64,000 bases of DNA from a virus (IMGVR_UViG_3300009671_000010:1-64000), one strand, 5' to 3'. Positions 25,183 through 45,088 are shown, numbered from the stretch's first letter. Program-made: numbers and translations. The notes: generated by a model not told the origin, from the letters alone.

Positions 25183-25183
25183 T

Positions 25184-25219
25184 ATTTAGCCATAGTCATA
25201 TATGGCTAAATTTTACTTT
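25184..25219 (+). terminator. intrinsic terminator after tube gene
   Basis: Perfect 11-bp stem ATTTAGCCATA / TATGGCTAAAT, 6-nt loop, T-rich tail. Confidence 0.7.
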
Positions 25220-25221
25220 AT

Positions 25222-28351: not shown

Positions 28352-28654
28352 ATGGAAGTTACAAAAGAACAAATTGAGGCATGGAAAAAAGAACATACAT
28401 ATGTCTATAGAACAAAATTTGACAATGATTTTTATTATTTTAGAACTCTAACACGTTCTGACTATGATAGGATTACTAGTGAGCAGGCTGCAGATCCAAT
28501 TGGGTATAATTATGAAAAGTCTGTAGTAGAAACATGTATTTTATCTGAACATCCTGCAGATATTTTTGATAAAAAATCTGGTATTGTAATTGTTTTATCA
28601 GAGGCTATATTTATTAGATCTGGTTTCCAACAAGTTGATATAGAAGAACTTTAA
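28352..28654 (+). CDS. tail assembly chaperone
   Basis: AAGGAG RBS; EQIEAWKKEH..VY...YYFRTLTRSDY pattern; position after tube genes. Confidence 0.75.
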   Translation: MEVTKEQIEAWKKEHTYVYRTKFDNDFYYFRTLTRSDYDRITSEQAADPIGYNYEKSVVETCILSEHPADIFDKKSGIVIVLSEAIFIRSGFQQVDIEEL

Positions 28655-29285: not shown

Positions 29286-32200
29286 ATGGCCTATTATAAT
29301 CCTTTTCAAGATAATAAATCATATTATAATCCATATGAACAGGCAAAAGCAACACCATCAGTAATATCAACTGTTTCTGATGTTGCTAAGAATATGATTG
29401 TATTTGGTGGTTTATTTGCATTAGGGACAGCTGCTACTAAATTTGCATCTGGCAAAATTGGTTCTATTGTTAAAAGTGGAAACTTTGGTAGAGCTACTGA
29501 AATAGCCAAAGGATTAGAGAAACCAACAATTGGAAGTATATTACGCAATTCCAGTGTTGGTAAAAATTATACTGCATTTAAGGAATCAACTGGTTTATAT
29601 AAAGCTGCACAAGAAAGATCTTCTTTACTCTCAAATATTGCAAAAACAGATCCTTCAAAATATAATTTAACCAAGATAACATCTGCTTTTAAAAATCCCA
29701 CTACTTTTGCTGCAACACTTGGTGGTGTATGGAAAAGAAATGTAATAACGGGCTTAGGTGTATCATTTGCCATCGATAAATTATCTGGTTATTATAATGA
29801 GATGAATCCAGAAAAGAAAGCATGGTATGACATTCCAGGTAAAGTTGGTCAGGTAGGTAAATGGTTTGTTAATAACAGTGTATACTCCACTGCATTTGGT
29901 TTACTTGGTCCTGCAGCAAAAGGTGTTGCAAGTATTGGTATGGCTGGAGCCAGGAAAGCATTCGGTGGATCTTTTGGTAAATATATAGAAAAAAGTCTAA
30001 GTCAAGTTTCACCAACACTACAGCATGTTAATGGAGAAAGCAATTTATTTAGAGATAAAGTAATTGCTAATGCCGTTTCAAGACATGAACAAACTTTTGC
30101 TACTAAAGCTATTAAATGGGGTCAAAACTTTTCAACATCTGTAAGTGAAAATTTTAGGAACTTAAATAGTTCAGTTAGAGCAGTTACAACTGGTGGTGCT
30201 GTAGATGCATTTAGAAAACAAGGATCATTTTTAAGTAAAGCTAAATCAGCTTTTGATCCAATTAAAAAAGCATTAGGTCAAATAAGAGAAATAAATGCCA
30301 GGGCAGAAACAATTAGAAGTGAGAGACTAGTTGATACAAGAACCAGTTATAGTGGTATTAGGGGTTTACAATTTTTACAGGCACTAGCTACTGATGCTGC
30401 ACAGAATACTACTATAGAGAAACATTCACTTGATGCACAGATAATGTCTGTTCGTGAATCTATGAAATCTAAACAGACATTTCTTGAGAAACTTCTTCCT
30501 ACTGCTAAACGTGTTAAGAATAAAGATATAACATCTAAAGAATGGTTAAGAGATCAAATAAAAGATCTTAGAAAAAGATATGATAATAAAAGTGTTGGTA
30601 AATTTGTAAGAGAATTTATGAATATGGATGTAGGTGATAATGTTTTTAAAATTAATAATAGAATTGTTAATCTTGATAATTATTCGCCATTTGGAATGAT
30701 AAGAAACATATCTGCTCCTCTATTAAATAAAAAGTTTAATGATCCATTAACAAATTTTAAGTTTACATTAGGTGATATTACAATGTTAAATACTTTTATA
30801 ACACCTAAACCTAAGCTTGATTTTTTTATTGATAAAAACTTAAAACAACTCGCTGAGAAACAAAGTTTAAATATACATGGTATAACTGAACGACCAGTAT
30901 TTTCAACAAATAGAGAACTACAAAAACAAGGTCTGAATAGTATTGATGATATTATGCGTAATTCTCAATCAACAGTAGCATTGTATACAAAAGGTGGCAA
31001 ATGGTCATTTTTTGGTCAAAATGAACCAATGTCTATCAGTACTGGAAAAGATTTAAATTATTCATCCAGATCAAGTAGATTTAGATATAATGAGACCAGG
31101 GATATTACTATTAAAAGTCTTCTCCATAAAGGTGTAAGTAAAAAAGAAATATCATCTCTATTAGGTGGTGTATATTCTGGTAATAATAAATTTGTTAAAT
31201 TTATGGATAAGATGGGATTCCAGTTACCAACAGCTATGGATGGAATGCTTGGTTCGTTGAATGATTTAATTGCTGGTAGAAATAGGGAATATTTAACTGC
31301 AGTTAAAAATATATTTACACCAGGTAGTGTCACTAATATTCAGTCGTCTCTAAATGTATTAGATGATATAAGATCACATACATCTCAAGTAATGTCTGAT
31401 ATACTTGGAAATCCAGAAGTAGTTGATATAATACAAAAACATGGCAGATTTGGTAATTTCAAGGATGATCTAAAGGATATATTATTTAGTGAAAAAAAAT
31501 TAATTGAAAAATTCAGTGAAGATGATTTGATAGCTGATGGCTGGAAGTATAGTTCTGATATTAGGAGAAATTTAGAAACAATAAAAGCATATCCATCTGT
31601 TGCTAGACAACATGAACAGGTCAAAACTCTTGGTGGTTTAGGATCAATGACTTCATTTGATAAACTCAAGGTTGCATATGTTGATCACATAACTGGGAAT
31701 AATTTTTTGAATTACGTTTCTAAAGGAAATGGTTATAAGCATGATTTAATTGATGCTGTTCCAGATTTATTAAATGCAGGTTTGATAACTGAAAAACAGG
31801 CTGGAATTGTTAAACTTCATGCCAAATTATCTTCTTTGCAAAACTATTCTAAGGAACAACTAAAGACTTCATTACAAACTACTGATTTCACAGGAAGTCA
31901 TTTATGGGATGAAATGATTTCTAATGAAAAGAAATTTGGTCTTGATCTTGAAAAAGATCTAATTCAATTTATTAATAATAATAAATTAAGAAGGACCAAT
32001 ATTAATAAATATGAGCAAAGAATTTTACAAAGGTTTAATGATAATAGACCTGTGAATAATAATACTCCTTATTATTCAATGGGTAGGGGTATCGAAGGTA
32101 TTGGACAGTATTTAGGTACTTCTATGGATCGTTTAACAGAAATCATGGGAGAAATAACTCCATTTAAAAAAGATCCTGTTAATCACTTCGGACTATTAGG

Positions 32201-35200
32201 TGGCGCAAAATATTTATCAGGAACAGTATTTAAAATAGCAGCTGCTACTACCGCTTATAGAATTGCAGATACAGCTATTGCGGCAAATCCTTTATTCGAT
32301 AATTCTTCATTTGATGATGGTATTACTGGTATGACGGCTGATCAACTTGCTAAAGCCCGATTATTCAGTGCAAAAGTTGGCGATACAATCGGATTAACTG
32401 GTGCAATGAAATATCTCGAGGGTTTGATGCCTGGATCAACATCAACTATTCCTGGTTTAATAGCTGGTGCTGCTATGGGAACTTTTACTAAGACTAGTCC
32501 ATTCGGAATGATTAAGGCTATGGCTGCAGGAGCTTTAATAAATAGGGTGGCAGATCCATATATTCCAGACTTTAGTAAAGATTATCAACAAGTAAGAAGA
32601 GAATATTCTGGTGAAGAAAAAGTTCCAATGATGAAATCTCCTACTTGGTTACTCGGTTCTACTCCATGGGAAGGTAGTAAAGTAGCAGGATATAGACCTA
32701 ACTGGTATGTTAGAGCCAAATCTAGGTGGGAAGCCTCTGATACGATGTATGGAAGTGAATTTAGAGCACTTATACATAAACCAATATTTCCACTTGGATT
32801 TAATATCGGTGATATAATTGATCCTTACTACATGGAACGCCGCCACTACTTCGATCGTCCCTATCCAAAGTGTCTTTTTGGAAGTGCTAAAGTAGTTACT
32901 GTTAATGGTATTAAGAAAATTAAGGATATCGATATTGGTGATTATGTATATGATATAAACGGTTCTGTTACAAAAGTTATCAATGTACTTAAACGTAAGG
33001 TAAATTATAATGATACAATTTTTTCTATGAGGGTTATTGGTCAGGAAGAAGATTTGATACTTACTTCTGATCATAAAATTCCTATTATAAGGGATAAAAA
33101 ATGTATTTTTAAATCACAACATAATAAGAGTTGCACAGGTAATGATAAAGGAATTTGTAGATATTGTACTAAAAAACGTAAAGATTTTGATATTAGTTGG
33201 GTAGAAGCTAAGGATATAAATATTGGTGATTTTTTGGTGAAAAAACCAATAAATCCTGAATATTTAGGATCCACTATAGATATTTCATTATATGTACAAA
33301 GACCATTTGATATTAAAGAAAATAAAATTTTCATTAAAGATAAACTAGGTAGATATACTGGAGATAGTTTTAATAGATACTGGGATATTGATAACGATTT
33401 AGCTTATTATTTTGGTTTATATTTATCAGAAGGATGGCTTGGTAAACAAAGGGGAAAATATATATCTGTTAATACCGTTCATAATAAAAAAGAATTTGAT
33501 CATATTAATAGAATAATTAATAATATATCAAAAAAATATAATTTAAAGTTTTCATATAAAGATTTTGGAACACATGTAAACTTTTATATATTTGATTATA
33601 TTTTTTCTGATATAATATATGGTTTATTTAATTGTGGTTCTGCTACTAAGAGTGTAAAATTTTTTACTAAAGAATTAGATAGAAAAATATTAGCTGGTTT
33701 ATTTTATGGAGATGGTCATTATGATAAAACACATGTTGTTTTAACCAGTATTAATATGAATTTGATTAATTTCGCAACCATAGTTCTAGAAAATGATTTT
33801 ATTTCTACATGTTTGAAGAAACACTGTGATAATGGTCATCAGTCGTACAGGTTATCATTTTCATATTCATACTTAGATGATTATAGATTGTTATTCGATA
33901 TTAATCATAAAAATGAGAACATATTAACTTCTAATAAGAAGTTACATTTAATTTATTTTAGGAATGGTTATCTTCTTAAAAGAATTATTAAAAAAGAGGA
34001 GATAGAGTATAATGATTTTCTATATGACCTTACTGTAGAATCACCAACACATAGTTTTTCTCTTTATGAATTTATTGTCCATAATTCAGGTAGATTATTT
34101 TCCGAGGTTCCTATTATAGGTGATCTTTTAACTCCTATTGGTAGAATTTTAAAACCCGAGAAAACAATGCATCAGGAGTTCTTACAAGGAGAATGGGCTG
34201 GAACAACTGATGGTGATAATCCTTCTATGGCTTCTTTACCACCTCCAACATATCAACAAAATATGTTTATGATGAACCAGGGAAGTGGTGCTAGAAGTCT
34301 TGGAAGAATTACTGCAAATGGTGGCAATTATACAACTGGGGGAATAACTCCTTGGTCTAAAGTTATTCAAGGTAAAGTTTTCGGAGATGTAACTGAAGCA
34401 ATGGGTTTACCTGGATTTTTAGCAAGAACAACTGCAGAAAAAGTATTTGGTGAACCAGAAGTAATTCCTACACTTGAATCAGCTGGAAGAATGGCTTCTA
34501 TGACAAGATCTTTTTATGATAAGAATCTTGGTGGTATGGGATCACTATGTTTACCAGCTTATGAAAAGATTTTAACACCAAGTGGTTTTATTATGTCTGA
34601 AGATATTAATATAGGTGACATAGTCTATGATAATTTTTATACTGAGCAAAAAGTTGTTAACAAATTTTCGAGATTATGTAGTGAAAATGAAAATTTATAC
34701 ACAATTACTATGGGAGCTGGTAAGACTACGATTTCTATGACTGATGAACATCCTGTTGCCATATATAAAAGAATTTCATGTAATGATAATAAAAAAAGAC
34801 CATGTATACCAAATTACTCAAAAAAATGTTTGACTTGTTCTAAACGTAATAGTCCTATTCATTGGAATTGGACAGCAGCAAAAAATATAAGTGTGGGTGA
34901 TTTTGGTGTTGTTCCTTTACCAAAAATTAAATCATTTAACTATATAGATTTAGCTAAGTATAGTGGTTATGTGTACACTGATAAATATATATATTTTCGT
35001 GCAACTTTAGAATACGCCAAAGGACTTGAGTTACTTGAAAATAATATTTGTAAAACAAGAAAAGATTTAAGAAATTATATATCTGATAACATAGCTAAAG
35101 AAGTTATCAGATGCTATCGATACCATAATTTTTCTAGAGTACGTATCCCTAGATTTATTAGTATTGATGAAGATTTTTGTTATTTTATGGGATGGTGGTT

Positions 35201-37994
35201 AGCTGAAGGTTCATCTGATATTAAAACTGGAAATATATGTTTTACATTAAATATTAATGAAATAAATATTGCACAAAAACTTGGAGAAATTTATAAAAGA
35301 TTTTCAAATTGTTCATATAATATTAAAATTATTAAAGAAAAAAATACTTGTATTTTATCACTTAAAAATAAAGCACTTTCATTATACTTAAAAACCTATG
35401 GTAATGTATATACAAAACAACTAAATGATTTAATTTATTTACCAGATAAATTAGCTATTTCATTATTAGATGGTTTGATAAATGGTGATGGGTGGATCAA
35501 TTATGATTTACAAAGAGGTGGATTTACATCTGTGTCTGAACGACTTGTTAGAGATATATGGTTATTATTATATAGATTAGGTGTACAATCTACTATTATT
35601 TTAAATTATAAAGAGCATCCAAATGGTTATTATCCTCAAGGAACACTAAGACACATAACTACGCGATCTTGTCTTAAATTTAATAAGGATGGTTTTATTA
35701 ATTTATCGAAATGTTTTTCCACTGGAGTTTCGAATGGAGTTATATCAAATGGAAGAGTTTTTACAACAACAGAATATCTGTTTATACAGATAACTGATAT
35801 AAATTTTGTTAATTATTCTGGAAAACCTGTATATGACATAGAAGTTGAAAACTCACATTGTTTTATTGGTAATTATATATTATTACATAATTCTGAACCA
35901 ATAAGAAGACTTTTATCTAAAGAAGAATATAATGAATATCAGGTTAATCCAATACCTAATATGATGCCAAACTTTCTACCTAGTCAATTTCTTACAGGAG
36001 ATCCTTATTCTTCCATTCAAAATGGAGAATTAAGATTACCAGGTAAAGCGTATATGCTAACTAATCCAGATTTAAAACAGAGTATGCCAGGTAGAGCAAG
36101 TAGTTTAGGTGCACCATTGGAAAATATAGTTCAATATTTTACTGGTTTATTACCCCCTAATTTAAAAGAAGAATATGATATATTAGAAACTGGTACATTA
36201 TGGCATAGTAAAATACAGGATACTTTAGCTGCAGAAGGATTGCTTATTAAAGCAGAGGCACTGGTATATGATGTTAAAAATGACATATCAGGACACGTGG
36301 ATGCTATTATTAGAGATGGACAAGGTGGTAAAGGAAGAAGAGCGTTAGAAATAAAAACTATCAGCAATAAAGGATTTGAAAAGCTTGATGCTCCGAAGGA
36401 TCAACATATAGGACAACTTAATTTCTATTTACATCAACTTAGATTTAATAATGGAACTATTTTATATATTAATAGAGATAACCCATCTCAAGTTAAAACA
36501 TTCGAGTTAACTTATAATAAAAACAGATGGGAAAGGGATGTTCAAAAACTACAGCGGGCAAGACAGATAGCTAGAGATATGATGAAAGATGATGTCAGTG
36601 ATACTTTAGGTTATTCCTATTCGTGGCTTGATAGATTAAATATCTTATCTGATGTTGCTCCGATGTCTAATGAATTTAAAGAAGCCAAACAGATTGTTAT
36701 GGCTCAAATTAAGGCTGGTCAATTTACACAAAAAGATATCGATAAATATCATAGAATATTAAAACAACAAAAAGCAAGAGCTAGATCATATGAATTATAT
36801 CCATTAAGATTTAAAGGTAAAGTAATGTCTCCTGACAGTGAGTCTAATATACAATCCATTAATGAGAACATAAAAGCATCTTCAGAATATACTTTACCAG
36901 AAAGATTAATTGGAAGTGCATGGGAAACATTCACAAATTCCAGTAACCCCGCAGTTAATAAATTTTGGGCATTTAAGGATCCACTTGAACATTATAAAGA
37001 AAAGAAATTATATGGTCGTGAGTATACACCGTGGGATGAACCGTATAGAAGCTGGATTGACCCATATATTAGAACTTCTCTTAGTAAAACAAGTACTGTA
37101 GGTGGCGGAGTTTCATGGGGAACTACTGGTTATGTATTTGGAGGTGAGTTTGGAGCTTTTGCTGGAAGTATATTAGGAGCAATGTATGGTACTGTAAATG
37201 GGCTATTTAGATCTGCTTCTAATAGTGCTTATATTCCATCAGAGGTAAAAAATCAAAGAAGAATAAATGAATATTTTGATAAGCTTAAATATGAACGTTC
37301 TAATATGATGTCATCTTTAACTATGGGTAACGTTCGTAATGAATTTTTAGCTCAAAGATCTGCTACTATGTATGCATTTAATAATGAGTCTGATCCATCT
37401 GTTGGTAATTTATTTAGAGCAGCAAGTCCATCAGAAAAACCATATCTACAATCATGGATAAATACAACTGATTCTGGTGAAAGAAATGAAATTTTAAAAC
37501 TTGTTCCAAATGATTTAGGGAGTGCACTTAAGAAGGTATGGGGTAAAAATGATGGTAAAACATTTACTAGAAACAGAATTGATAATATAAGTTCTGATAT
37601 GTCTGGAAATCAACAGAATTTTAATTTTGATGCATCTTTGATGGACCCAAGAATTAACGTGGATGATATAAAATTAAAAGCAATAGAGGATTATGGATAT
37701 AATTGTCATGATTTTGGTTTAGGCTGGAATGAACAAATGTTGAGAATAAAAGAATCAGAACTCAACATACCAAAATCTAATTTAAATGATGATATACCAT
37801 ATACTCCAAATTTATCATCAACGCAAATACGAGGTCAGATATATGAATTACTTCATCAGAGTGGTATTAAATGTAACGTAAATGTCTATATTAATAATAT
37901 GGATGGTCCCAATGTTGTTAATTTAACAGTAAGAAGAGATAGATCACTTGTAGCAATTAATGCATTAAGAAATAGAAGAAAGTATGGAGTTTAA
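29286..37994 (+). CDS. giant tape-measure-position virion protein with two inteins and a PD-(D/E)xK nuclease domain (2049 aa after splicing)
   Basis: Follows chaperones; multiple Gly/Ala-rich hydrophobic segments; two canonical inteins; GTLWH...GHVDAII...LEIKT...QLNFY nuclease motifs. Confidence 0.8.
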   Translation: MAYYNPFQDNKSYYNPYEQAKATPSVISTVSDVAKNMIVFGGLFALGTAATKFASGKIGSIVKSGNFGRATEIAKGLEKPTIGSILRNSSVGKNYTAFKESTGLYKAAQERSSLLSNIAKTDPSKYNLTKITSAFKNPTTFAATLGGVWKRNVITGLGVSFAIDKLSGYYNEMNPEKKAWYDIPGKVGQVGKWFVNNSVYSTAFGLLGPAAKGVASIGMAGARKAFGGSFGKYIEKSLSQVSPTLQHVNGESNLFRDKVIANAVSRHEQTFATKAIKWGQNFSTSVSENFRNLNSSVRAVTTGGAVDAFRKQGSFLSKAKSAFDPIKKALGQIREINARAETIRSERLVDTRTSYSGIRGLQFLQALATDAAQNTTIEKHSLDAQIMSVRESMKSKQTFLEKLLPTAKRVKNKDITSKEWLRDQIKDLRKRYDNKSVGKFVREFMNMDVGDNVFKINNRIVNLDNYSPFGMIRNISAPLLNKKFNDPLTNFKFTLGDITMLNTFITPKPKLDFFIDKNLKQLAEKQSLNIHGITERPVFSTNRELQKQGLNSIDDIMRNSQSTVALYTKGGKWSFFGQNEPMSISTGKDLNYSSRSSRFRYNETRDITIKSLLHKGVSKKEISSLLGGVYSGNNKFVKFMDKMGFQLPTAMDGMLGSLNDLIAGRNREYLTAVKNIFTPGSVTNIQSSLNVLDDIRSHTSQVMSDILGNPEVVDIIQKHGRFGNFKDDLKDILFSEKKLIEKFSEDDLIADGWKYSSDIRRNLETIKAYPSVARQHEQVKTLGGLGSMTSFDKLKVAYVDHITGNNFLNYVSKGNGYKHDLIDAVPDLLNAGLITEKQAGIVKLHAKLSSLQNYSKEQLKTSLQTTDFTGSHLWDEMISNEKKFGLDLEKDLIQFINNNKLRRTNINKYEQRILQRFNDNRPVNNNTPYYSMGRGIEGIGQYLGTSMDRLTEIMGEITPFKKDPVNHFGLLGGAKYLSGTVFKIAAATTAYRIADTAIAANPLFDNSSFDDGITGMTADQLAKARLFSAKVGDTIGLTGAMKYLEGLMPGSTSTIPGLIAGAAMGTFTKTSPFGMIKAMAAGALINRVADPYIPDFSKDYQQVRREYSGEEKVPMMKSPTWLLGSTPWEGSKVAGYRPNWYVRAKSRWEASDTMYGSEFRALIHKPIFPLGFNIGDIIDPYYMERRHYFDRPYPKCLFGSAKVVTVNGIKKIKDIDIGDYVYDINGSVTKVINVLKRKVNYNDTIFSMRVIGQEEDLILTSDHKIPIIRDKKCIFKSQHNKSCTGNDKGICRYCTKKRKDFDISWVEAKDINIGDFLVKKPINPEYLGSTIDISLYVQRPFDIKENKIFIKDKLGRYTGDSFNRYWDIDNDLAYYFGLYLSEGWLGKQRGKYISVNTVHNKKEFDHINRIINNISKKYNLKFSYKDFGTHVNFYIFDYIFSDIIYGLFNCGSATKSVKFFTKELDRKILAGLFYGDGHYDKTHVVLTSINMNLINFATIVLENDFISTCLKKHCDNGHQSYRLSFSYSYLDDYRLLFDINHKNENILTSNKKLHLIYFRNGYLLKRIIKKEEIEYNDFLYDLTVESPTHSFSLYEFIVHNSGRLFSEVPIIGDLLTPIGRILKPEKTMHQEFLQGEWAGTTDGDNPSMASLPPPTYQQNMFMMNQGSGARSLGRITANGGNYTTGGITPWSKVIQGKVFGDVTEAMGLPGFLARTTAEKVFGEPEVIPTLESAGRMASMTRSFYDKNLGGMGSLCLPAYEKILTPSGFIMSEDINIGDIVYDNFYTEQKVVNKFSRLCSENENLYTITMGAGKTTISMTDEHPVAIYKRISCNDNKKRPCIPNYSKKCLTCSKRNSPIHWNWTAAKNISVGDFGVVPLPKIKSFNYIDLAKYSGYVYTDKYIYFRATLEYAKGLELLENNICKTRKDLRNYISDNIAKEVIRCYRYHNFSRVRIPRFISIDEDFCYFMGWWLAEGSSDIKTGNICFTLNINEINIAQKLGEIYKRFSNCSYNIKIIKEKNTCILSLKNKALSLYLKTYGNVYTKQLNDLIYLPDKLAISLLDGLINGDGWINYDLQRGGFTSVSERLVRDIWLLLYRLGVQSTIILNYKEHPNGYYPQGTLRHITTRSCLKFNKDGFINLSKCFSTGVSNGVISNGRVFTTTEYLFIQITDINFVNYSGKPVYDIEVENSHCFIGNYILLHNSEPIRRLLSKEEYNEYQVNPIPNMMPNFLPSQFLTGDPYSSIQNGELRLPGKAYMLTNPDLKQSMPGRASSLGAPLENIVQYFTGLLPPNLKEEYDILETGTLWHSKIQDTLAAEGLLIKAEALVYDVKNDISGHVDAIIRDGQGGKGRRALEIKTISNKGFEKLDAPKDQHIGQLNFYLHQLRFNNGTILYINRDNPSQVKTFELTYNKNRWERDVQKLQRARQIARDMMKDDVSDTLGYSYSWLDRLNILSDVAPMSNEFKEAKQIVMAQIKAGQFTQKDIDKYHRILKQQKARARSYELYPLRFKGKVMSPDSESNIQSINENIKASSEYTLPERLIGSAWETFTNSSNPAVNKFWAFKDPLEHYKEKKLYGREYTPWDEPYRSWIDPYIRTSLSKTSTVGGGVSWGTTGYVFGGEFGAFAGSILGAMYGTVNGLFRSASNSAYIPSEVKNQRRINEYFDKLKYERSNMMSSLTMGNVRNEFLAQRSATMYAFNNESDPSVGNLFRAASPSEKPYLQSWINTTDSGERNEILKLVPNDLGSALKKVWGKNDGKTFTRNRIDNISSDMSGNQQNFNFDASLMDPRINVDDIKLKAIEDYGYNCHDFGLGWNEQMLRIKESELNIPKSNLNDDIPYTPNLSSTQIRGQIYELLHQSGIKCNVNVYINNMDGPNVVNLTVRRDRSLVAINALRNRRKYGV
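32871..34085 (+). mobile_element. intein with LAGLIDADG endonuclease (405 aa)
   Basis: RPYPK|CLFGSAKV, block B LTSDH, YFGLYLSEGW and LAGLFYGDG, ends LYDLTVE...FIVHN, +1 Ser. Confidence 0.93.
34548..35891 (+). mobile_element. intein with LAGLIDADG endonuclease (448 aa)
   Basis: GMGSL|CLPAYEKI, block B MTDEHP, FMGWWLAEGS and LDGLINGDG, ends VYDIEVE...ILLHN, +1 Ser. Confidence 0.93.
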
Positions 37995-40900
37995 ATTGGC
38001 TTTATTCAAAAATGATGATAAAAAAGAAAAAGATAAATTCTGGTTTGTTAAAGTTGCTACTAATGCAGCTATTGCTGGTGGAGCTTTTTATGGATTTAAA
38101 AAGGTAAAAGGACCAGCTGGATCAATCATTAAAAAAATTACAGATACAAATATAAATACAACTGTTGAAAAAGAAGCAGCTAAATACATTAAAACTTCAG
38201 AAGAATTTTCTAATGGTTACAATCCTTTTGATGAAGATGATTTAATTAATCCAAATATTCCAGATCAAATGATGACAATGACTGAATCTCTTATAAGTTC
38301 TAGTGAGGATAGTCTTATATCTGAAATAAATACTCTCAGTAATACTGATAAAGAATTTGGTGAAAAGTTTTCTATTTTCTACTCTAGATTTAATAGTCTT
38401 GAAAAATATGCAATTTCATATGGTCTTGATGGTGAAGATGCACATATAATTTTAGCACTTAGATCTGTTGTTCAAAAAGCACTTGCAAATGGCGTAGTTG
38501 ATGATAGTATTATTTCTAAGGTTAATTCATTACATGAAAAGTATTTAAAGCAAAACGCTTATGGTGTTTTATATCAAAGCCAATTACATCATCTTAAAAA
38601 TAATGCCAGGAAAGTTGTATTTGATAATATGTCATCGAAAGATGTATTAAAAAAATCAATTCTTGGTGATGTTACAACTGACTTAAGTTCTAAAGTAGAA
38701 TCACATCTTCTTGCTGATTTATTTAAAAGGAATAAATCTATCGAGGAATTTGTTCCTGGACAGATTAACAGTGCTCTTACACATGAGCTTGGTTCAACTA
38801 TATCTTCTTTCAAAAAAACAGTTGACTATAATCCACTACTTACAAGGATAGATGACAAACTTAGTTTAATCGAAGCAAAACCAAATTCCAGTATTACTTC
38901 ACATGCTATTCAAATAGCTAGAGATACAAATGGAAAACAGTGGGCTCATATAAATATAACTTTAAATAGCGGGAAGACACACACATTGGAAGTTCCACTT
39001 GCAAAAAATATGATTGTTCCAGGTTCAAATTCAACTGTAAGTTCATATGTTGATATGTTATTCACATTTGGTGGATCTCCAGCAAGTCCATATCAAAATG
39101 TGAAAAGTGCATTAAATTCAAGTGAATATATATTACATACAATATCAAAAAGACTTGATACTAATTCTTCTTTTATGAGTGAGTTTATTAGTGATACTAG
39201 TAATGCTATTCATAGATTAAATAATGAAATTAATGGAATACTTGATAACCTTACAATATATCAAGGTAAACCTGGTCAGTTGATATTACAATTATATAAT
39301 CCAGAATATGATAAACTTTTACATCAAAATGGTGAAGCTGGTCAAAGACAATATGACAAAATGAATCGTGCATTAAATAATATGTCTATGATGAATAGAA
39401 TGGTTCAATATAAAAAAGAAATAAAAAGTGGTAGAATTGGACGTGTATTTATAGTATCATTGGATACAGAAACGATAATGGCATCACAAACACATATACC
39501 TGGTTTAGAACACACTGCTAGAAATCCACAAACTCACTTAGTACAAATTGGTATTGACATAGCAGAGGTTAACAATTCTATGACTCCTAAAGTAGTGGAA
39601 TCTAAAAGATTTTATAGTGATCATGCTACTAATGCTTTGAAAAAAGATAATCTTTTTGATACAAAACAAATGGAATTCATACGTAAGGTTACACCTGGAG
39701 TTGATGCAAGTACAAGTATTGATGAAGTTATAAGCAAATATACTGAACATATTAAATTAAAAACTGATCAAACTGGAACGCGTGCTGCTAATGATACACA
39801 ATTTGCAGACAGTCTTTTAGATTATCTTGATCAATTCTTTGAACACAGTAAAACTGGTAAACTTGGTATTAATGATAAAGTTGTTATAGTTACAAAAAAT
39901 GGTCAACAATATGATTTACCATTGATTAAATTACATGCTACTAAAATGAAATGGAATAAATTTGAACGTAAATATAAAAATATGATTGATACTGGTTCTC
40001 TTGGGGTAATAGAATCAAAATATAATTTCGATGATAGTCCCCTTGGATTGGATTCCGTTATGAAAGGTATTCTTAATAGAACAGGTTTTGGAGATCCGAA
40101 TGTCGATTTTAATAATCCTAAAGTCATAGGAAGTGTATTAGATCATTTTGAAAGAAAAGGTTATCTTACAATTGATAATAATGTTAAAAAACAATTACAG
40201 GGTGCACTAACTCAAACGCATGGTGAAGCAGTAGTGGATGCATTATTTAACATAGTCATATATCAGGATATGTTTCTAAAGGCATCTACTAAAAGAGGGA
40301 TTTGGGATACATCTACACAATTAAAATTAAGAAAAGTAAATGATATGTTTCATGGATCTGCTTCTATTTATGAAAATGTTTTAACTAGAATGGAAAATGA
40401 CTCAGCTTATTTTAATGGGAAATTATTTACTGGATTTTTATCATCTGCTAATAGAGCTACAAAGGGTGCCTTGTATGAAGAATCAGCTGGAGCATTGTAT
40501 GCTTTTGGAGGTGGGTCTAACTTATCTAAACAGATATATCAAAATTTATCTGGACATACATTATCACGAAATATAAACATATCACCAAAAAAAGGTAGAA
40601 ACATTTTTAGAAAAACACTAACTACATTACCCGCTGTTGAATTACATCTAAAAAGAGAAAAAGCAAATAAACAAGCTGGTCTATATAGAGGTAAAGGAGT
40701 AACTCATAACAGTATAACTGTTAAATCAGCTCAAGTTATTTACTCTGCTGCAGAAACTGAAGGTTTGGCAATTTTATCTACTGACATAGCTAAGCAGGTT
40801 AATGTATTACATGATATGAATGTAAATATTAGTTCTATTAATTTTAGCGGAAATAGTACAGATGTAGGACCTCGTATTGATAAGTTTAAAAATATATTAT

Positions 40901-43900
40901 TAGATGCAATGTTAAATGAAAAGAGTAGTAAGCCAGGAAGTATAATTGATATTAATAGATTAGCAAAAAGAATTGCTTCGAGACCCGATATTAATCTTGC
41001 TAGACTACCGCGAGGTACTACTATTGGATCAGGTGATCTTGGACAGATTATATTGAAACATACAGCTAATATTGAGGATTTTGAAATTACACCAATAGAT
41101 GTTAATGGTAGAATTGATTTGGATATACGTGTAAAAATATCAAGAAAGGCTAGGGTTGATGGAAGTGAAGCATGGAAGGCTCGTGATATAAGTGGAAATA
41201 AATCTGTTCTTACATACTCTGATCCAAGTCAAAAAATAAATGGATTATATGGACATGATTTTAGAACTGAAGCAAAATGGATAAAAGATGGTAATGTTTC
41301 AGCTTTTAAAGATTCAGCTGTAAATAAAATTATAGGCACATTACAAGAACAAATTTATTCTGGTGATAGAAAACAATCTATACAAGCTAAATGGCAATTA
41401 AGAAAATTTGCAAGGGAAATTGGCGCTGACATAGTTAAAGATGAATTAATACTTAATCCTTATAAAATGAAAAAAACTAAGTATAAGCATTTGGGTAAAA
41501 AGGAAGAACAGCTTGCACACGCTATTTATGGGGCTCTAGACATCAGTTTAGATACAATCAATAGGTATATGAAGCCTGTTGGCAGTACGTGGTCTAGTGA
41601 GCGTTTAAAGGAGTTTTATGCTAATTTTGGAGGCGGGGATTATAATAAAGGTAGAAGTATTGCTAAAAGATTAGCTGATTCAATGTATGATAAAGCTGTT
41701 TCTAAATTAAAAAATGCAAGTCAGGAAGCATTATATTCAGTTAGTAAAGGTGATGTTTTAAAGGTAGAAGAAGAATATAGAAGAATAGCTGATTCTATAT
41801 ATCAACCAAAAGAAGGCGATACAATTTTTGCTGAATGGGCTAACTCTGATCCTAATGTCAAAAGTTCACATAAATCACTTATATTCTCCTCATTCAGTGA
41901 AATAAGTTTACATTCAGGTAGTATCACTGGAGAAGGTTTCGGATATCATACATTAAAAATGAGTAATAATGTAGTAGATCATATTCTTAGGTCAGATTAT
42001 ATTTCAAAAACTACTAAGGATATGGTTTCCAGTAATAGAGTCTATTATAGAGATGATATAAAGGCGAAAGCTAAAAAATCATTGGATAAATTTAAAAGAG
42101 AAGTATTTGCTGAAGCTTCTATGGCAACACATCTTGATCTTAATGAAATTAATAAATTATTATCTAGACCTGGGACTGAAATGCTTTCTTCTAATAATTT
42201 GGCAAAAAGTATTGATGAAGAGTTGAAAAAAAATATAGCTGGTTATAATATAGAAGCAGATGATATTCTTATTGATGTTAAAGATTCTATGATGACAACG
42301 ATTGAAAAATATAAAGATCATCTAGTTATGATTGATAATGAACTTGATGATCCAGAAAAATTTAGAGAGTATAAAGAAAAACTTGTTTCAAATATTATTT
42401 CACATCATAGAATGGAAACTGCTTTAAAAAAACAAAGTAAATTCGTTACCTATGAAGAAACAAGTGTATGGGCAAAAATGGCTAAAGAGCATAATAATAT
42501 TTTTAGGATTAGTAATAGTGTATCTGGTTTACCAGCAGTATTTGATATTGATATGAATAAAACCTTTAATTCTATTTATGGATCTACAAATTATTCTAAG
42601 CAACAGAAAAATTTATTTGTTAAAATGCTTAATGATATGTTAAAATATCAGCAAAAAAATAAAGTCGATGGACCAATTATATCTATTGATGGAGATAATG
42701 TTAAACTTAGAGAATTATTTATACCAGCACATGATGTAGCAGCAAACATAGCTGACAAAGTTGCTGGACCAATTGCTAGGGAAACTCCAGAAACATATAG
42801 TTCTAAAAGATTCTTACAATCAGTTGTATCTTATGCTAATGGTTTAACTATGCAGGGATGGACAGATGTTAATGCTAAAAGTTCCTATGAAACTATGATT
42901 AAGTTCTGGACTATGCATATTCTTGATACAACTATTGGTAATAAATCTGTATATGGTCAATGGCAGTCATCTAATTTAAAAGTTCAACAGTTTAAATCAA
43001 AAGGTGCTGAAAATTTATATATACAGGCACTTGAAATAAAAAATGCAGGAGGTATGAAAGCTATAGCCAAAGATAAAAATGTATCAGCTGATTATATACG
43101 TAGAGGTAATGAGATTCTTGAACAAATTTTAAATTCAAAATTTAATACTACATTCATATCAGAGACTGCATTTAAAAAAATGAAAGTTGACATAGGTGCG
43201 GGATTATCTACATCGTCAGAATCATATCTCAAGTCATTATCTACTAAGCAGGATAATCTATATAAAAGAATAGTTTCTGGTGAACAGAAAATGATTGGTT
43301 TTTCTACTCGTTATCCAAATGAACCACAGGGACAACACGCAATGATGGATACCATGATTCAGGTTATACCTGATGAATATAAAAAATATTTCCTAATGGA
43401 TGACTGGAGTGCATATACATATGATATATTTACTCAAATGATTAAGATGGACCATGATGGTGATGTTAATAACATCGGTTTAACCAATGTTAATACTATT
43501 GAAAAATTTAGGACTCACCGTAAAGAAATAAAGAATAAATCAAAATTATTATTTCAAAAAATTACTAATGTTATAGAAAAGCAAAAATATGATTATCATA
43601 CATGGATGAGACCTATAGGACTTGATGAAAATGGTGTTATGGATATACTTACATTTGATAAAGTAACCTATAGTCCCAGGGTTATAAAAAAAGAACTAAC
43701 TCAAGCATCTACTGATGAATTAGCTGAATTATTTGCTGGAGACAATATGTCAGCTTTTATTGCTGGATATGGTACTCAACTTCCTGAATTCATGACTGGT
43801 AGAGGATTAAATGCTATTAGGGTTCAAGCTGCATCGGCTGCTGCCACTAAAGATACTATGGGTATTGCAACCAATAGTGTAATGCGTGCAAACATAGCTA

Positions 43901-44919
43901 TGAAAGCTGGACTAGTTAAAGATCAGCATATTATTAATGATTTTTTTGGTGACATGAAAACTGGTTTAGGACGATTTTTACAAGATGTTACTGGTATTAC
44001 AAAAAATCCTACATTAGAAAAAATTATATCATTATCTAGGCAACTTGAAGTTTTACATGGAAAAACATCTGATCTTGAAGCAGTTGAACAATTTAAAGAT
44101 AGTTATATTAAAACATTTGAAAATGAGGCTAAATCTCTTGGTGATGAATATGATTTATTTCTTAATAAAAAAGGTTCTTTTTATGAGAATAAGAAAAATC
44201 AAATAGATACATATATCATGGTTAATAAAATTATTAATACGGCTAATAGAAATAGTGTTACGTTTAGAGATGCATATAAACAAGTTGTTCAATCTGAAAT
44301 GAATTCACCATCCAGAGGTTTGACTAGTATTTTTAATCAACCAGAAGATATTGGGCGTGATGATATATTTGCTGGAGTTCTAGAAAATGCAAGGCAAAAT
44401 CATTTTTATGAAACAAGTTCTATATTTGATGAGTTTTCTGAAAACTTTAAAAATAAAATAAAACTTAGTCATCCTATTATTAATAATAGTAAAAAATTTG
44501 CTAAATATGGTGCTATTGGTGCATCGGTGTTCTTAGCTGCTAATTTCTTTAGGTCAAATCAATTAAGTTCATCAGCCAATCCTTTAGATATGTTTGTTGA
44601 CTTAGATAATAATATAAATTCTGACAATAATATTTTTTCTTCTGATTTACAACTTGATAGAGGATCTTCACTTGAAATGGTAGATGCGTCATTCTCTAAA
44701 AAAGCTTTTGTTAGAATGAATAAAATACAACAAGGTAAAATGAATCAATATAAGTCAAAACAAATTAATAGTATTTTAGGCAGTATGTCTGAAAATTACT
44801 CAAATACAGGCTTTAATGTTTCAAATAGAGATATAGTAACCAATGCGAACTATACTAGTCATATTGGTAAATTCGGTAATAATAATATAGTAAGAAAGAG
44901 AAAATATGGTGGTTATTAA
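37984..44919 (+). CDS. putative single-chain two-barrel virion RNA polymerase fused to DEDDh 3'-5' exonuclease
   Basis: Exonuclease motifs SLDTET, KNGQQYDLPLI, IDT, HGEAVVD (aa ~490-755); polymerase motifs TEGLAILS (~926), KARDISGNKSV (K1065/K1073), RYP (R1776), MDHDGD (D1823-D1827). Confidence 0.75.
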   Translation: MEFKLALFKNDDKKEKDKFWFVKVATNAAIAGGAFYGFKKVKGPAGSIIKKITDTNINTTVEKEAAKYIKTSEEFSNGYNPFDEDDLINPNIPDQMMTMTESLISSSEDSLISEINTLSNTDKEFGEKFSIFYSRFNSLEKYAISYGLDGEDAHIILALRSVVQKALANGVVDDSIISKVNSLHEKYLKQNAYGVLYQSQLHHLKNNARKVVFDNMSSKDVLKKSILGDVTTDLSSKVESHLLADLFKRNKSIEEFVPGQINSALTHELGSTISSFKKTVDYNPLLTRIDDKLSLIEAKPNSSITSHAIQIARDTNGKQWAHINITLNSGKTHTLEVPLAKNMIVPGSNSTVSSYVDMLFTFGGSPASPYQNVKSALNSSEYILHTISKRLDTNSSFMSEFISDTSNAIHRLNNEINGILDNLTIYQGKPGQLILQLYNPEYDKLLHQNGEAGQRQYDKMNRALNNMSMMNRMVQYKKEIKSGRIGRVFIVSLDTETIMASQTHIPGLEHTARNPQTHLVQIGIDIAEVNNSMTPKVVESKRFYSDHATNALKKDNLFDTKQMEFIRKVTPGVDASTSIDEVISKYTEHIKLKTDQTGTRAANDTQFADSLLDYLDQFFEHSKTGKLGINDKVVIVTKNGQQYDLPLIKLHATKMKWNKFERKYKNMIDTGSLGVIESKYNFDDSPLGLDSVMKGILNRTGFGDPNVDFNNPKVIGSVLDHFERKGYLTIDNNVKKQLQGALTQTHGEAVVDALFNIVIYQDMFLKASTKRGIWDTSTQLKLRKVNDMFHGSASIYENVLTRMENDSAYFNGKLFTGFLSSANRATKGALYEESAGALYAFGGGSNLSKQIYQNLSGHTLSRNINISPKKGRNIFRKTLTTLPAVELHLKREKANKQAGLYRGKGVTHNSITVKSAQVIYSAAETEGLAILSTDIAKQVNVLHDMNVNISSINFSGNSTDVGPRIDKFKNILLDAMLNEKSSKPGSIIDINRLAKRIASRPDINLARLPRGTTIGSGDLGQIILKHTANIEDFEITPIDVNGRIDLDIRVKISRKARVDGSEAWKARDISGNKSVLTYSDPSQKINGLYGHDFRTEAKWIKDGNVSAFKDSAVNKIIGTLQEQIYSGDRKQSIQAKWQLRKFAREIGADIVKDELILNPYKMKKTKYKHLGKKEEQLAHAIYGALDISLDTINRYMKPVGSTWSSERLKEFYANFGGGDYNKGRSIAKRLADSMYDKAVSKLKNASQEALYSVSKGDVLKVEEEYRRIADSIYQPKEGDTIFAEWANSDPNVKSSHKSLIFSSFSEISLHSGSITGEGFGYHTLKMSNNVVDHILRSDYISKTTKDMVSSNRVYYRDDIKAKAKKSLDKFKREVFAEASMATHLDLNEINKLLSRPGTEMLSSNNLAKSIDEELKKNIAGYNIEADDILIDVKDSMMTTIEKYKDHLVMIDNELDDPEKFREYKEKLVSNIISHHRMETALKKQSKFVTYEETSVWAKMAKEHNNIFRISNSVSGLPAVFDIDMNKTFNSIYGSTNYSKQQKNLFVKMLNDMLKYQQKNKVDGPIISIDGDNVKLRELFIPAHDVAANIADKVAGPIARETPETYSSKRFLQSVVSYANGLTMQGWTDVNAKSSYETMIKFWTMHILDTTIGNKSVYGQWQSSNLKVQQFKSKGAENLYIQALEIKNAGGMKAIAKDKNVSADYIRRGNEILEQILNSKFNTTFISETAFKKMKVDIGAGLSTSSESYLKSLSTKQDNLYKRIVSGEQKMIGFSTRYPNEPQGQHAMMDTMIQVIPDEYKKYFLMDDWSAYTYDIFTQMIKMDHDGDVNNIGLTNVNTIEKFRTHRKEIKNKSKLLFQKITNVIEKQKYDYHTWMRPIGLDENGVMDILTFDKVTYSPRVIKKELTQASTDELAELFAGDNMSAFIAGYGTQLPEFMTGRGLNAIRVQAASAAATKDTMGIATNSVMRANIAMKAGLVKDQHIINDFFGDMKTGLGRFLQDVTGITKNPTLEKIISLSRQLEVLHGKTSDLEAVEQFKDSYIKTFENEAKSLGDEYDLFLNKKGSFYENKKNQIDTYIMVNKIINTANRNSVTFRDAYKQVVQSEMNSPSRGLTSIFNQPEDIGRDDIFAGVLENARQNHFYETSSIFDEFSENFKNKIKLSHPIINNSKKFAKYGAIGASVFLAANFFRSNQLSSSANPLDMFVDLDNNINSDNNIFSSDLQLDRGSSLEMVDASFSKKAFVRMNKIQQGKMNQYKSKQINSILGSMSENYSNTGFNVSNRDIVTNANYTSHIGKFGNNNIVRKRKYGGY

Positions 44920-45088
44920 TCTAACTATTGATCTACAGGATGGAATACAACCTGATAATATTATTTCATCTATTCAAGCAATCTTATCTCAAATTACAAA
45001 TAATCAAACTATGGTTAATGTTAATGAAGTAAATGATCCCATATCATTAAGTCCTATATCTTTTAATAAAATTGGAGATTCTGAATGA
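44906..45088 (+). CDS. small hypothetical protein
   Basis: 60 aa, fills the gap exactly, overlaps the upstream stop and is ATGA-coupled to the next gene. Confidence 0.6.
   Translation: MVVINLTIDLQDGIQPDNIISSIQAILSQITNNQTMVNVNEVNDPISLSPISFNKIGDSE

What the first reader, a model, noticed from the sequence alone, without database searches (positions are those of the whole stretch)
29286..45088. Coupled gene set as a possible co-injected transcription and DNA-processing machine
Seen: the nuclease-bearing giant, the exonuclease-RNAP giant and a 60-aa ORF overlap each other's stop and start codons, at the position normally held by one tape-measure gene. Both giants have Gly/Ala-rich hydrophobic segments (e.g. 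AAIAGGAFYGF and YGAIGASVFLAANFF near the ends of the RNAP protein). Inference: both could be stored extended in the tail or head, ejected, and membrane-anchored. They would then supply two nucleases of different families plus a polymerase at the entry site, possibly pulling DNA in by transcription as T7 does.
Basis: inference. Interest (0 to 1): 0.8.

Follow-up and report, generated by a model that had tools for sequence, protein, structure and literature searches.

The report
Tail-module RNA polymerase and nuclease giants
In the tape-measure slot of an uncultured jumbo contractile-tailed phage, a conserved gene block encodes a giant nuclease-bearing virion protein and a giant exonuclease fused to a cell-type RNA polymerase. 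The phage probably carries both in the particle to start infection, as a Thermus phage is already known to do, so this is a new variant rather than a new principle.

Summary
The window is the structural module of a roughly half-complete, about 230-kb myovirus distantly related to Bacillus phage 0305phi8-36.

- **Gene order:** after sheath, tube and two chaperone-position genes come g1, g2, a conserved 60-aa gene and g3. Their stops and starts overlap by 11, 14 and 4 nt.
- **g1 (2902 aa):** carries two LAGLIDADG inteins and a Cas4-like PD-(D/E)XK nuclease.
- **g2 (2311 aa):** carries a DEDDh exonuclease and a single-chain two-barrel RNA polymerase.
- **g3 (2270 aa):** is the baseplate hub.

In 42 full-length g2 relatives the exonuclease residues and the RNAP signature R-x-P...DxDGD are invariant or nearly so. 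AlphaFold models match RNA polymerases and DEDD exonucleases. The same block recurs in 9 of 9 related loci, including the most divergent ones. The g1 homologue in 0305phi8-36 is a virion protein by mass spectrometry.

Delivery of g2 with the DNA is likely but not shown. The "membrane anchor" segments are conserved but only weakly hydrophobic. The true tail ruler is unresolved.

The closest precedent is the tape-measure-fused virion RNAP of Thermus phage P23-45 (Chaban 2024). I class this as a new variant of a known kind. This scan has already noted tail-slot RNAPs on other DNA: 81 notes in at least 67 genomes.

The parts
28352..28654 (+). 100-aa gene in the tail-chaperone position
   Evidence: A gene of the same size sits at the same place in L029 and L031. 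It corresponds in position to 0305phi8-36 gp143.
28731..29282 (+). 183-aa gene in the tail-chaperone position
   Evidence: 176-178-aa genes sit at the same place in relatives. It corresponds in position to gp144.
29286..37994 (+). g1: 2902-aa giant (2049 aa after splicing), homologue of 0305phi8-36 gp145
   Evidence: BLASTP to gp145 gives several colinear segments, E 1e-14 to 1e-4. Intein-free orthologues are 2041-2091 aa.
29382..29450 (+). g1 N-terminal hydrophobic helix (aa 33-55)
   Evidence: Kyte-Doolittle 1.39. The same plan is seen in relatives and in gp145.
32871..34085 (+). Intein 1 with LAGLIDADG endonuclease (C1196 to N1600, +1 Ser)
   Evidence: Pfam Intein_splicing and LAGLIDADG_3 hits. 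Boundaries. The insert is absent from the L006, L008 and L010 orthologues.
34548..35891 (+). Intein 2 with LAGLIDADG endonuclease (C1755 to N2202, +1 Ser)
   Evidence: Pfam hits, boundaries, absent from intein-free orthologues.
36177..36569 (+). PD-(D/E)XK (Cas4/RecB-like) nuclease domain of g1 (aa about 2298-2428)
   Evidence: phrog_1706 at E 1.7e-16, plus phrog_2506 and phrog_1990. The GT..H, D, E-x-K and Q..Y motifs are conserved in 6 relatives and gp145.
37984..44919 (+). g2: 2311-aa exonuclease-RNA polymerase giant
   Evidence: The family has 57 representatives at 50% identity, most of them 2234-2491 aa. No Pfam, PHROG, NCBIfam or PDB sequence hit.
38041..38097 (+). g2 N-terminal hydrophobic segment (aa 20-38) followed by the conserved K-x-x-G-P
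   Evidence: G43 and P44 are invariant. Kyte-Doolittle 0.99.
39436..40293 (+). DEDDh 3'-5' exonuclease domain (aa about 485-770)
   Evidence: D494, E496, D669, H746 and D752 are invariant and D644 is kept in 98%. The AF2 model matches Pop2, RNase T, TREX and PolB exonuclease domains at probability about 1.
41143..44361 (+). Single-chain two-barrel RNA polymerase (aa about 1054-2126)
   Evidence: AF2 model with pLDDT 75.8. All 84 Foldseek PDB hits at E<=1e-3 are largest RNAP subunits. VIA-align top hits are QDE-1 (Z 8.7), P74-26 gp62 (8.3), RDR2 (8.0) and P23-45 gp96 (7.5).
43450..43464 (+). Catalytic DHDGD loop (D1823, D1825, D1827), preceded by R1776-x-P1778
   Evidence: The three Asp and P1778 are invariant in 42 relatives; R1776 is kept in 93%. 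This is the only such motif in a long ORF of the contig.
44491..44916 (+). Most conserved part of g2: C-terminal module with the hydrophobic GAIGAxxFLxxNxF segment and the ASFSK motif
   Evidence: A hydrophobic segment sits at about the same distance from the C-terminus in 0305phi8-36 gp146, Moorella CDS0031 and ME3 gp036. The resemblance is not statistically significant.
44906..45088 (+). Conserved 60-aa gene between g2 and the hub
   Evidence: A 56-62-aa orthologue is present at the same place in 8 relatives, at 30-43% identity. No family match.
45085..51897 (+). g3: 2270-aa baseplate hub giant, homologue of 0305phi8-36 gp147
   Evidence: tblastn to gp147, ME3 gp037 and Moorella CDS0032. phrog_20474 at E 7e-31. 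33-36% identity to g3 of relatives over nearly the full length.

Best explanation
g1, g2, the 60-aa gene and g3 form a conserved, translationally coupled late (tail-module) gene block of a clade of about 220-230-kb myoviruses related to 0305phi8-36.

**g2.** It occupies the slot that holds the putative tape measure (gp146) in 0305phi8-36. From N- to C-terminus it has a short hydrophobic leader, a DEDDh 3'-5' exonuclease, a QDE-1/YonO-type single-chain two-barrel RNA polymerase, and a conserved C-terminal module.

**Most likely mechanism.** g2 is built into the particle during tail assembly. On sheath contraction it is expelled ahead of or with the DNA. It then transcribes the first genes of the entering genome, as shown for the tape-measure-fused gp96 of Thermus phage P23-45.

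**g1.** This lineage-wide virion protein carries an active-looking PD-(D/E)XK nuclease and would travel the same way.

**Later genes.** These would use host RNAP with the phage sigma factor.

**Shown here:** domain identities, conservation of catalytic residues, gene linkage, and slot equivalence. **Inferred:** virion location of g2, ejection, timing of transcription, and the substrates of the two nucleases.
For: - **RNAP identity.** The R-x-P...DxDGD signature is invariant or nearly so in 42 relatives. It satisfies the [RK]xPx{20,100}DxDxD filter used by Chaban et al.. Fold matches are exclusively to two-barrel RNAPs.
- **Exonuclease identity.**
- **Slot equivalence.** The gene order matches 0305phi8-36 and ME3.
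- **Virion evidence in a relative.** gp145 (the g1 homologue), gp146 (same slot as g2) and gp147 are marked as virion proteins by mass spectrometry in the 0305phi8-36 record.
- **Linkage.** The block is intact in 9 of 9 loci, with g1/g2 overlapping or abutting, down to 23% identity.
- **Only RNAP candidate.** A complete 230-kb relative and a 95%-complete one have no YonO/RdRP-type (PF05183) gene, and no other long ORF among their D-x-D-G-D matches. The PF05183 search did find 0305phi8-36 gp99 as a positive control. A sigma-70-like gene lies on the same contig.
- **Logic of timing.** An RNAP made with the tail genes is useful mainly if it is packaged for the next infection.
- **Precedent.** P23-45 gp96.
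- **A cultured relative.** ME3 gp036, in the same slot, has R-E-P...DHDQD. It is probably the ME3 protein behind the RNAP model's second-best BFVD match (E 6e-7); that link is inferred from chunk size.
Against: - There are no proteomic, expression or activity data for g2 or any member of its family.
- g2 is predicted to be largely globular, unlike a canonical helical ruler. It would have to be stored unfolded, or in the head.
- No tape-measure profile matches g1 or g2.
- The end segments are too weakly hydrophobic to call transmembrane.
- g2 shows no significant sequence relation to gp146.
- The contig is only about 48% complete, so a second RNAP in this particular genome cannot be excluded.
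Confidence: 0.6

Rival explanations
1. g2 is a non-virion enzyme. It would be made late with the structural proteins and act inside the producing cell, for example in late transcription, priming, or RNA synthesis linked to replication or packaging. Its place in the tail module would be historical.
For: g2 is globular and enzyme-like. It has no tape-measure profile hit. 0305phi8-36 keeps its YonO-like RNAP gp99 outside the structural module, with no virion note in the record.
Against: The position between g1 and the hub, with overlapping stops and starts, is strict in 9 of 9 loci. The conserved N- and C-terminal modules are unrelated to catalysis. The protein in the equivalent slot of 0305phi8-36 is a virion protein. 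A phage sigma factor is available for late genes.
Confidence: 0.15
2. g1 and g2 are delivered, but as weapons rather than as a DNA-processing and transcription machine. The two nucleases would degrade host or competitor nucleic acids. The polymerase would make non-coding or decoy RNA, or act on RNA templates as QDE-1 does, to counter defence.
For: The best structural matches include the RNA-silencing polymerases QDE-1 and RDR2. Two nucleases of different families are conserved. The g1 nuclease is present in gp145 of a phage whose slot-mate has no RNAP.
Against: All characterised virion RNAPs (N4, the crAss-like phage phi14:2, P23-45) transcribe early phage genes (and established knowledge). 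Complete relatives show no other phage RNAP.
Confidence: 0.12
3. g2 is carried in the capsid as an internal cargo protein, as in N4 and crAss-like phages, not in the tail lumen. g1 alone is the tape measure.
For: g1 directly follows the chaperone-position genes, which is the canonical tape-measure place. It is conserved across the whole lineage: 0305phi8-36, Moorella MTATph1 and ME3. g2 is globular.
Against: The gene lies in the tail operon, not the head operon. The C-terminal hydrophobic module resembles in position that of gp146, the assigned tape measure.
Confidence: 0.1

Closest known systems
Thermus phage P23-45 gp96, a tape-measure-fused virion two-barrel RNAP (Chaban et al. 2024, PMC10770324; PDB 8H2M/8H2N)
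   Same: A two-barrel RNAP with DxDGD encoded in the tape-measure gene slot, carrying hydrophobic segments. It is proposed to transcribe pre-early genes at the entry pore. VIA-align Z is 7.5.
   Different: P23-45 is a siphovirus. Its RNAP is the N-terminal 1200 aa of a 5002-aa protein that also has a long ruler and a metallopeptidase. There is no exonuclease and no partner nuclease giant, and P23-45 has a second, non-virion RNAP. There is no detectable sequence similarity to g2.
Bacillus phage 0305phi8-36 gp145-gp146-gp147 (Thomas 2007; Hardies 2007, PMC2147016)
   Same: The tail-module order is the same. g1 is homologous to gp145, including the nuclease motifs. g3 is homologous to the gp147 hub. 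All three are virion proteins by mass spectrometry.
   Different: gp146, the assigned tape measure, has no DxDxD motif and no detectable similarity to g2. The 0305phi8-36 RNAP is a separate 1218-aa YonO-like gene, gp99, near the genome end. There are no inteins in gp145/gp146 and no 60-aa gene.
Acinetobacter jumbo myovirus vB_AbaM_ME3 gp035-gp036-gp037
   Same: It is a cultured relative with the same slot order. gp036 (1603 aa) has R-E-P...DHDQD. The g2 family HMM hits it weakly (E 0.0035). It is probably the ME3 protein behind the RNAP model's second-best BFVD match (E 6e-7), a link inferred from chunk size.
   Different: It is shorter. An exonuclease domain was not shown. gp035 (1263 aa) showed no BLAST match over the g1 nuclease region. 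There is no small gene before the hub. gp036 is annotated only as hypothetical, and no held paper calls it an RNAP.
Virion RNAPs of crAss-like phage phi14:2 (gp66) and of N4
   Same: Giant virion-carried polymerases that are delivered with the DNA to transcribe early genes. gp66 is also a single-chain two-barrel enzyme (as cited, and from established knowledge).
   Different: These are podoviruses and the proteins are stored in the head. N4 vRNAP is T7-like, not two-barrel. Neither has an exonuclease fusion.
QDE-1 / RDR2 / YonO clade of single-chain two-barrel polymerases
   Same: Best structural matches: Z 8.7 and 8.0, spanning both barrels at model residues 55-1127. The barrel order, beta-like first and beta'-like second, is the same.
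   Different: The Pfam RdRP model PF05183 does not match g2. About 700 aa separate the two barrels in g2. The Z-scores are only middling.

Membership tests
Two-barrel (DPBB) RNA polymerase superfamily | Metal-binding DxDxD loop in the beta'-like barrel | tested here: met
   DHDGD at aa 1823-1827. All three Asp are invariant in 42 relatives.
Two-barrel (DPBB) RNA polymerase superfamily | [RK]-x-P located 20-100 residues before the DxDxD loop | tested here: met
   R1776 (93%) and P1778 (100%) lie 44 residues upstream of D1823. The filter is as stated in Chaban et al., Supplementary Data 4.
Two-barrel (DPBB) RNA polymerase superfamily | Second (beta-like) barrel that supplies two basic residues | tested here: inconclusive
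   The family consensus is K...G..K at aa 1102-1109. K1109 is kept in 90%. P0002 has K1101 in place of K1102. Single-chain RNAP matches start at model residue about 55, which is aa about 1054. No residue-level structural alignment was available.
Two-barrel (DPBB) RNA polymerase superfamily | Overall fold similar to solved RNAPs | tested here: met
   84 Foldseek hits at E<=1e-3, all of them Rpb1, A190 or beta'. VIA-align gives Z 7-8.7, with the top 14 rows all RNAPs. TM-scores are low and the Z-scores middling.
Two-barrel (DPBB) RNA polymerase superfamily | Template-dependent RNA synthesis | not testable with these tools
   Needs an enzyme assay.
DEDDh (DnaQ-like) 3'-5' exonuclease | ExoI D-x-E, ExoII D, and ExoIII H-x(n)-D | tested here: met
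   D494, E496, D644, H746 and D752 are invariant or 98% conserved. The His-Asp spacing is one residue longer than usual.
DEDDh (DnaQ-like) 3'-5' exonuclease | RNase H-like exonuclease fold | tested here: met
   The model has pLDDT 80-93 over aa 280-830. Foldseek top hits are Pop2, RNase T, TREX1/2, PARN and PolB exonuclease domains, at probability 0.97-1.0 but E only 3e-3 to 1e-2.
PD-(D/E)XK nuclease, Cas4/RecB-like | Profile match and the D...E-x-K plus Q-x-x-x-Y motifs | tested here: met
   phrog_1706 at E 1.7e-16. GHVD, ALEIK and QLNFY are conserved in 6 relatives. gp145 has D-I-K.
PD-(D/E)XK nuclease, Cas4/RecB-like | Cas4-type Fe-S cysteine cluster | not tested
   Not examined here. A first-reader note (e1-5865541) says it is absent.
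Tail tape measure protein | Gene directly after the tail chaperone genes and before the hub | tested here: met
   g1 directly follows the 100-aa and 183-aa genes. g2 directly precedes the small gene and the hub. The slot is shared by the two.
Tail tape measure protein | Match to a tape-measure profile | tested here: inconclusive
   No hit in Pfam, PHROGs or NCBIfam for g1, g2 or intein-free orthologues. Tape measures are very diverse, so the absence of a hit decides nothing.
Tail tape measure protein | Long, mostly helical extended chain | tested here: not met
   This applies to g2. AF2 predicts folded mixed alpha/beta domains over aa about 280-830 and 1050-2130.
Tail tape measure protein | Protein length proportional to tail length | not testable with these tools
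   No particle images exist for this clade.
Virion RNA polymerase | Present in purified particles and active before phage protein synthesis | not testable with these tools
   The support is indirect only: late-operon position and virion status of the slot-mates in 0305phi8-36.
Intein with LAGLIDADG homing endonuclease | Hint and LAGLIDADG profiles, Cys1, a terminal His-Asn followed by a nucleophile, and absence from orthologues | tested here: met
   Pfam hits. Boundaries are C1196...HN1600/S and C1755...HN2202/S. Intein-free orthologues align colinearly across both sites.

The most novel reading that the evidence does not exclude
In this clade the contents of the contractile tail's lumen have become an enzyme train. 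g1 and g2 would thread through the tube on contraction and lodge at the cytoplasmic membrane through their shared N-terminal leaders and C-terminal modules. The PD-(D/E)XK nuclease of g1 and the DEDDh exonuclease of g2 would then resect the entering genome end, giving the single-stranded template that QDE-1/YonO-type polymerases prefer. Transcription by g2 would both express the first genes and help pull the 230-kb genome in. If so, tail length would be set by g1 or by unfolded enzyme chains, and an exonuclease-RNAP fusion would be a new kind of transcription initiation module.
Probability: 0.15. Interest if true: 0.85.

Novelty: new variant of a known kind. Interest (0 to 1): 0.6.

Why it matters
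The only published virion RNAP built into a tape-measure protein is in one group of Thermus siphoviruses.

Here the same idea appears in contractile-tailed jumbo phages, in an unannotated protein family of at least 57 clusters at 50% identity. It is fused to a proofreading-type exonuclease and is always paired with a nuclease-bearing virion giant.

This suggests that tail-delivered transcription enzymes are widespread and are missed by annotation pipelines.

It also gives an accessible test system, because the cultured Acinetobacter phage ME3 appears to carry a shorter version (gp036).

Finally, it raises a concrete question: how can a tail be measured, and a roughly 260-kDa globular enzyme be passed through a tail tube, when the slot's protein is not a simple helical ruler?

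Tried and rejected
**Searches that found nothing.**
- tblastn of g2 against 50,697 phage records: no match.
- phmmer and a family profile against PDB sequences: nothing meaningful.
- Pfam, PHROGs and NCBIfam on g2 and on intein-free g1: nothing beyond inteins and the nuclease.
- BLASTP, family HMM and hhalign of g2 against 0305phi8-36 gp146, gp145, gp99 and Moorella CDS0026-0032: not significant. I therefore dropped the idea that g2 is a recognisable homologue of gp146 or of the YonO-like gp99. hhalign did pick the same C-terminal hydrophobic segment in each.
- A scan for a second RNAP found none. D-x-D-G-D matches in G001, G002 and the own contig fall in short ORFs or non-RNAP proteins.
- The T7-like PF00940 search found nothing, but its control also rang nowhere, so it is uninformative.

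**Hydropathy.** The "membrane anchor" segments score about 1.0, so I do not call them transmembrane.

- Complex prediction (g2 C-terminal module with the 60-aa protein): the machine was busy on four tries, so there is no result.

**Other dead end.** The ME3 genome announcement gives no tail length, so the length-versus-ruler test could not be made.

Full report
**What the window is.** All large ORFs are on the + strand and GC is about 30%. Profile searches identify these genes:
- a large terminase with a mini-intein, 4817-7114
- portal, 9647-12646
- major capsid protein, 15181-16500
- a 913-aa tail sheath, 21670-24411
- a tail tube and a paralogue, 24460-26178
- a 711-aa protein with a tube-like N-terminus and an SLT lytic transglycosylase domain
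- downstream of the finding, gp25-like and Baseplate_J proteins

The sheath and the 2270-aa protein find only Bacillus phage 0305phi8-36 and its kin, Moorella phage MTATph1 and Acinetobacter phage ME3, at 26-30% identity. The window is the first 64 kb of a 111-kb viral contig that CheckV rates 48% complete. Two relatives are 230 kb (terminal repeats, 100% complete) and 219 kb (95% complete). So this is the structural module of an uncultured jumbo myovirus of the 0305phi8-36 lineage.

**The observation.** The four ORFs exist as described. Their stops and starts overlap by 11, 14 and 4 nt. The order is sheath, tube, tube paralogue, SLT protein, two small genes, g1, g2, small gene, hub. This is the order of 0305phi8-36 gp139-gp147. 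There gp143/gp144 are the split tail chaperone, gp146 is the assigned tape measure and gp147 is the gp27-like hub. The slot is therefore the tape-measure slot. In this lineage, however, it already holds two giants, so "one tape measure gene" is inexact.

**g1 (P0001).**
- It is colinear with 0305phi8-36 gp145 in several segments. It also matches Moorella CDS0026 and ME3 gp035.
- Two inteins with LAGLIDADG domains interrupt it: C1196-N1600 and C1755-N2202, each followed by Ser.
- Orthologues in L006, L008 and L010 lack both inteins and align straight across the sites. The spliced protein is 2049 aa, against 2041-2091 aa in relatives.
- Residues about 2298-2428 match Cas4/RecB-type nuclease PHROGs at E 1.7e-16. 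The GT..H, D, E-x-K and Q..Y motifs are kept in six relatives and in gp145.
- gp145 is marked in its record as a virion protein identified by mass spectrometry.

**g2 (P0002).**
- No curated library, phage record or PDB sequence matches it.
- An exhaustive HMMER scan of 1.8 billion representatives found 57 relatives, most of them 2234-2491 aa.
- In 42 full-length members the invariant or nearly invariant positions fall into three groups.
  - DEDDh exonuclease set: D494, E496, N639-G640, D644, D669, H746, D752.
  - Beta'-type RNAP signature: R1776-x-P1778 followed 44 residues later by D1823-x-D1825-G-D1827.
  - Further conserved residues: Q2000, K2007, and a K...K pair near 1101-1109.
- An AlphaFold model of aa 1000-2150 has pLDDT 75.8 and pTM 0.69. 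It gives 84 Foldseek PDB hits at E<=1e-3, every one a largest RNAP subunit.
- An independent all-against-all structural search ranks QDE-1 (Z 8.7), the P74-26 non-virion RNAP gp62 (8.3), RDR2 (8.0), Pol I/II/III, the AR9 and phiKZ RNAPs and P23-45 gp96 (7.5) at the top. The single-chain enzymes align across both barrels. These Z values are middling, but the list is uniform and agrees with the motif evidence.
- A model of aa 1-1000 is confident over aa 280-830. It matches only DEDD exonucleases (Pop2, RNase T, TREX, PARN, PolB exonuclease), with probability near 1 but modest E-values.

So "exonuclease-RNAP giant" is correct.

**The ends of g2.**
- The N-terminus has a conserved, moderately hydrophobic stretch followed by K-x-x-G-P.
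- The C-terminal 140 residues are the best conserved part of the whole family.
- g1 and g2 share the N-terminal plan: a polar leader, often M-A-x-Y-[ND]-P-[FY], and then a hydrophobic helix.
- The quoted segments score only about 1.0 on a 19-residue Kyte-Doolittle window, no higher than buried segments of the folded domains. Membrane insertion is therefore possible but not indicated by hydropathy.
- A hydrophobic segment sits at about the same distance from the C-terminus in gp146, Moorella CDS0031 and ME3 gp036. hhalign picks it, without significance.

**Linkage.**
- Six IMG/VR loci, and three further loci found through the two most divergent family members (23-26% identity), all show the same order. 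It runs 100-aa gene, about 177-aa gene, g1, g2, a 56-62-aa gene, g3, an about 265-aa gene, an about 170-aa gene, Baseplate_J, wherever the contig reaches.
- g1 and g2 overlap or abut in every case.
- The small gene is conserved, with P45 and P50 invariant within a D-[DN]-P-[IL]-S-x-[SN]-P motif, so it is a real gene of unknown role.

**Wider lineage.**
- g1 and the hub are conserved from Bacillus to Acinetobacter phages. The middle giant varies.
- 0305phi8-36 gp146 has no DxDxD motif and no similarity to g2. That phage carries a separate YonO-like RNAP, gp99, near its right end.
- In the g2 clade the complete relatives have no PF05183-type gene. They also have no other long ORF among their D-x-D-G-D matches. 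The contig does encode a sigma-70-like protein.
- The cultured phage ME3 has, in the same slot, the 1603-aa gp036 with R-E-P...DHDQD. The g2 family HMM touches it at E 0.0035.
- An 802-residue second chunk of an ME3 protein is the second-best BFVD match to the g2 RNAP model (E 6e-7). I infer from the chunk size that it is gp036.
- Other BFVD matches include a Microcystis myovirus protein and a siphovirus "minor tail protein".
- No paper in the held library calls any of these an RNAP.

**Mechanism.** The published precedent is Thermus phage P23-45. The N-terminal 1200 residues of its 5002-aa tape measure are a two-barrel RNAP. That protein is present in virions, transcribes pre-early genes, and is proposed to act at the tape-measure pore while DNA enters.

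By analogy and by gene context, the most likely reading is that g2 is assembled into the particle with the tail and expelled on contraction. It would then transcribe the first genes, and host RNAP with the phage sigma factor would take over later. g1 would be a co-delivered nuclease.

I put this at about 0.6. What lowers it:
- There is no direct evidence of virion carriage for g2.
- g2 is predicted to be globular.
- The ruler is unidentified.
- The hydropathy of the end segments is weak.

The roles of the two nucleases are open. They could process the genome end, proofread or cleave RNA, or attack host nucleic acids.

**Novelty.** The principle, a virion RNAP in the tape-measure gene, is known. 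Several things differ here:
- the tail type is contractile
- the protein family is unannotated and shows no detectable sequence relation to gp96
- a DEDDh exonuclease is fused to the RNAP
- g2 is always paired with a nuclease-bearing giant and a small conserved gene
- the RNAP appears to have replaced the helical tape measure of sister phages

I class it as a new variant of a known kind. This scan has already noted tail-slot RNAPs in myoviruses on other DNA: 81 notes in at least 67 genomes, some with an exonuclease fusion. Those are unchecked AI notes that agree with this reading.

Noticed in passing
window 4817-7114; G000 92068-95766, 96972-100433 and 108793-111237 (all three on the - strand): The genome is unusually rich in inteins. 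Besides the two in g1 there are: a mini-intein in the large terminase (aa 63-223); inteins with homing endonucleases in the primase-helicase and in the family B DNA polymerase; and one in a 1231-aa protein of unknown core.
   Followed up: partly
G000 105911-106714 (- strand; L005:11911-12711): A 266-aa protein with a Sigma70_r2 domain (E 1.2e-10). This is a phage sigma factor that could redirect host RNAP to later genes.
   Followed up: no
L009:13759-14427: In one relative a 222-aa ORF with an HNH-like Cys/His-rich sequence is inserted between the small conserved gene and the hub gene. It looks like a free-standing homing endonuclease in the coupled block.
   Followed up: no
L032:21173-25984 (Acinetobacter phage vB_AbaM_ME3 gp036): The tape-measure-slot protein of this cultured jumbo phage is annotated hypothetical. 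It carries R-E-P...DHDQD, and a chunk of an ME3 protein (inferred to be gp036) matches the g2 RNAP model in BFVD. It is a likely unrecognised tail-module RNAP in an isolate.
   Followed up: partly
window 29286-29450 and 37984-38110, and the same places in L006-L011, L029 and L031: g1 and g2 share an N-terminal plan: a polar leader, often M-A-x-Y-[ND]-P-[FY], then an 18-20-residue hydrophobic stretch. This could be a common incorporation or export signal.
   Followed up: partly
window 32583-32870, 34086-34547 and 35892-36160 (g1 aa about 1099-1195, 1601-1754, 2203-2290): Both inteins sit in a strongly conserved core of g1 that is shared with gp145, Moorella CDS0026 and ME3 gp035 and has no assigned fold or function. 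Inteins usually mark functionally critical sites.
   Followed up: no
window 9647-12646: The portal protein is 999 aa, about twice the usual size. Residues 327-415 hit a PHROG labelled thymidylate synthase, which may mean an inserted element. Pfam finds nothing.
   Followed up: no
window 26181-28316: A 711-aa protein combines a tail-tube-like N-terminus (phrog_9206) with an SLT lytic transglycosylase domain (aa 536-594). It is in the position of virion protein gp142 of 0305phi8-36.
   Followed up: no
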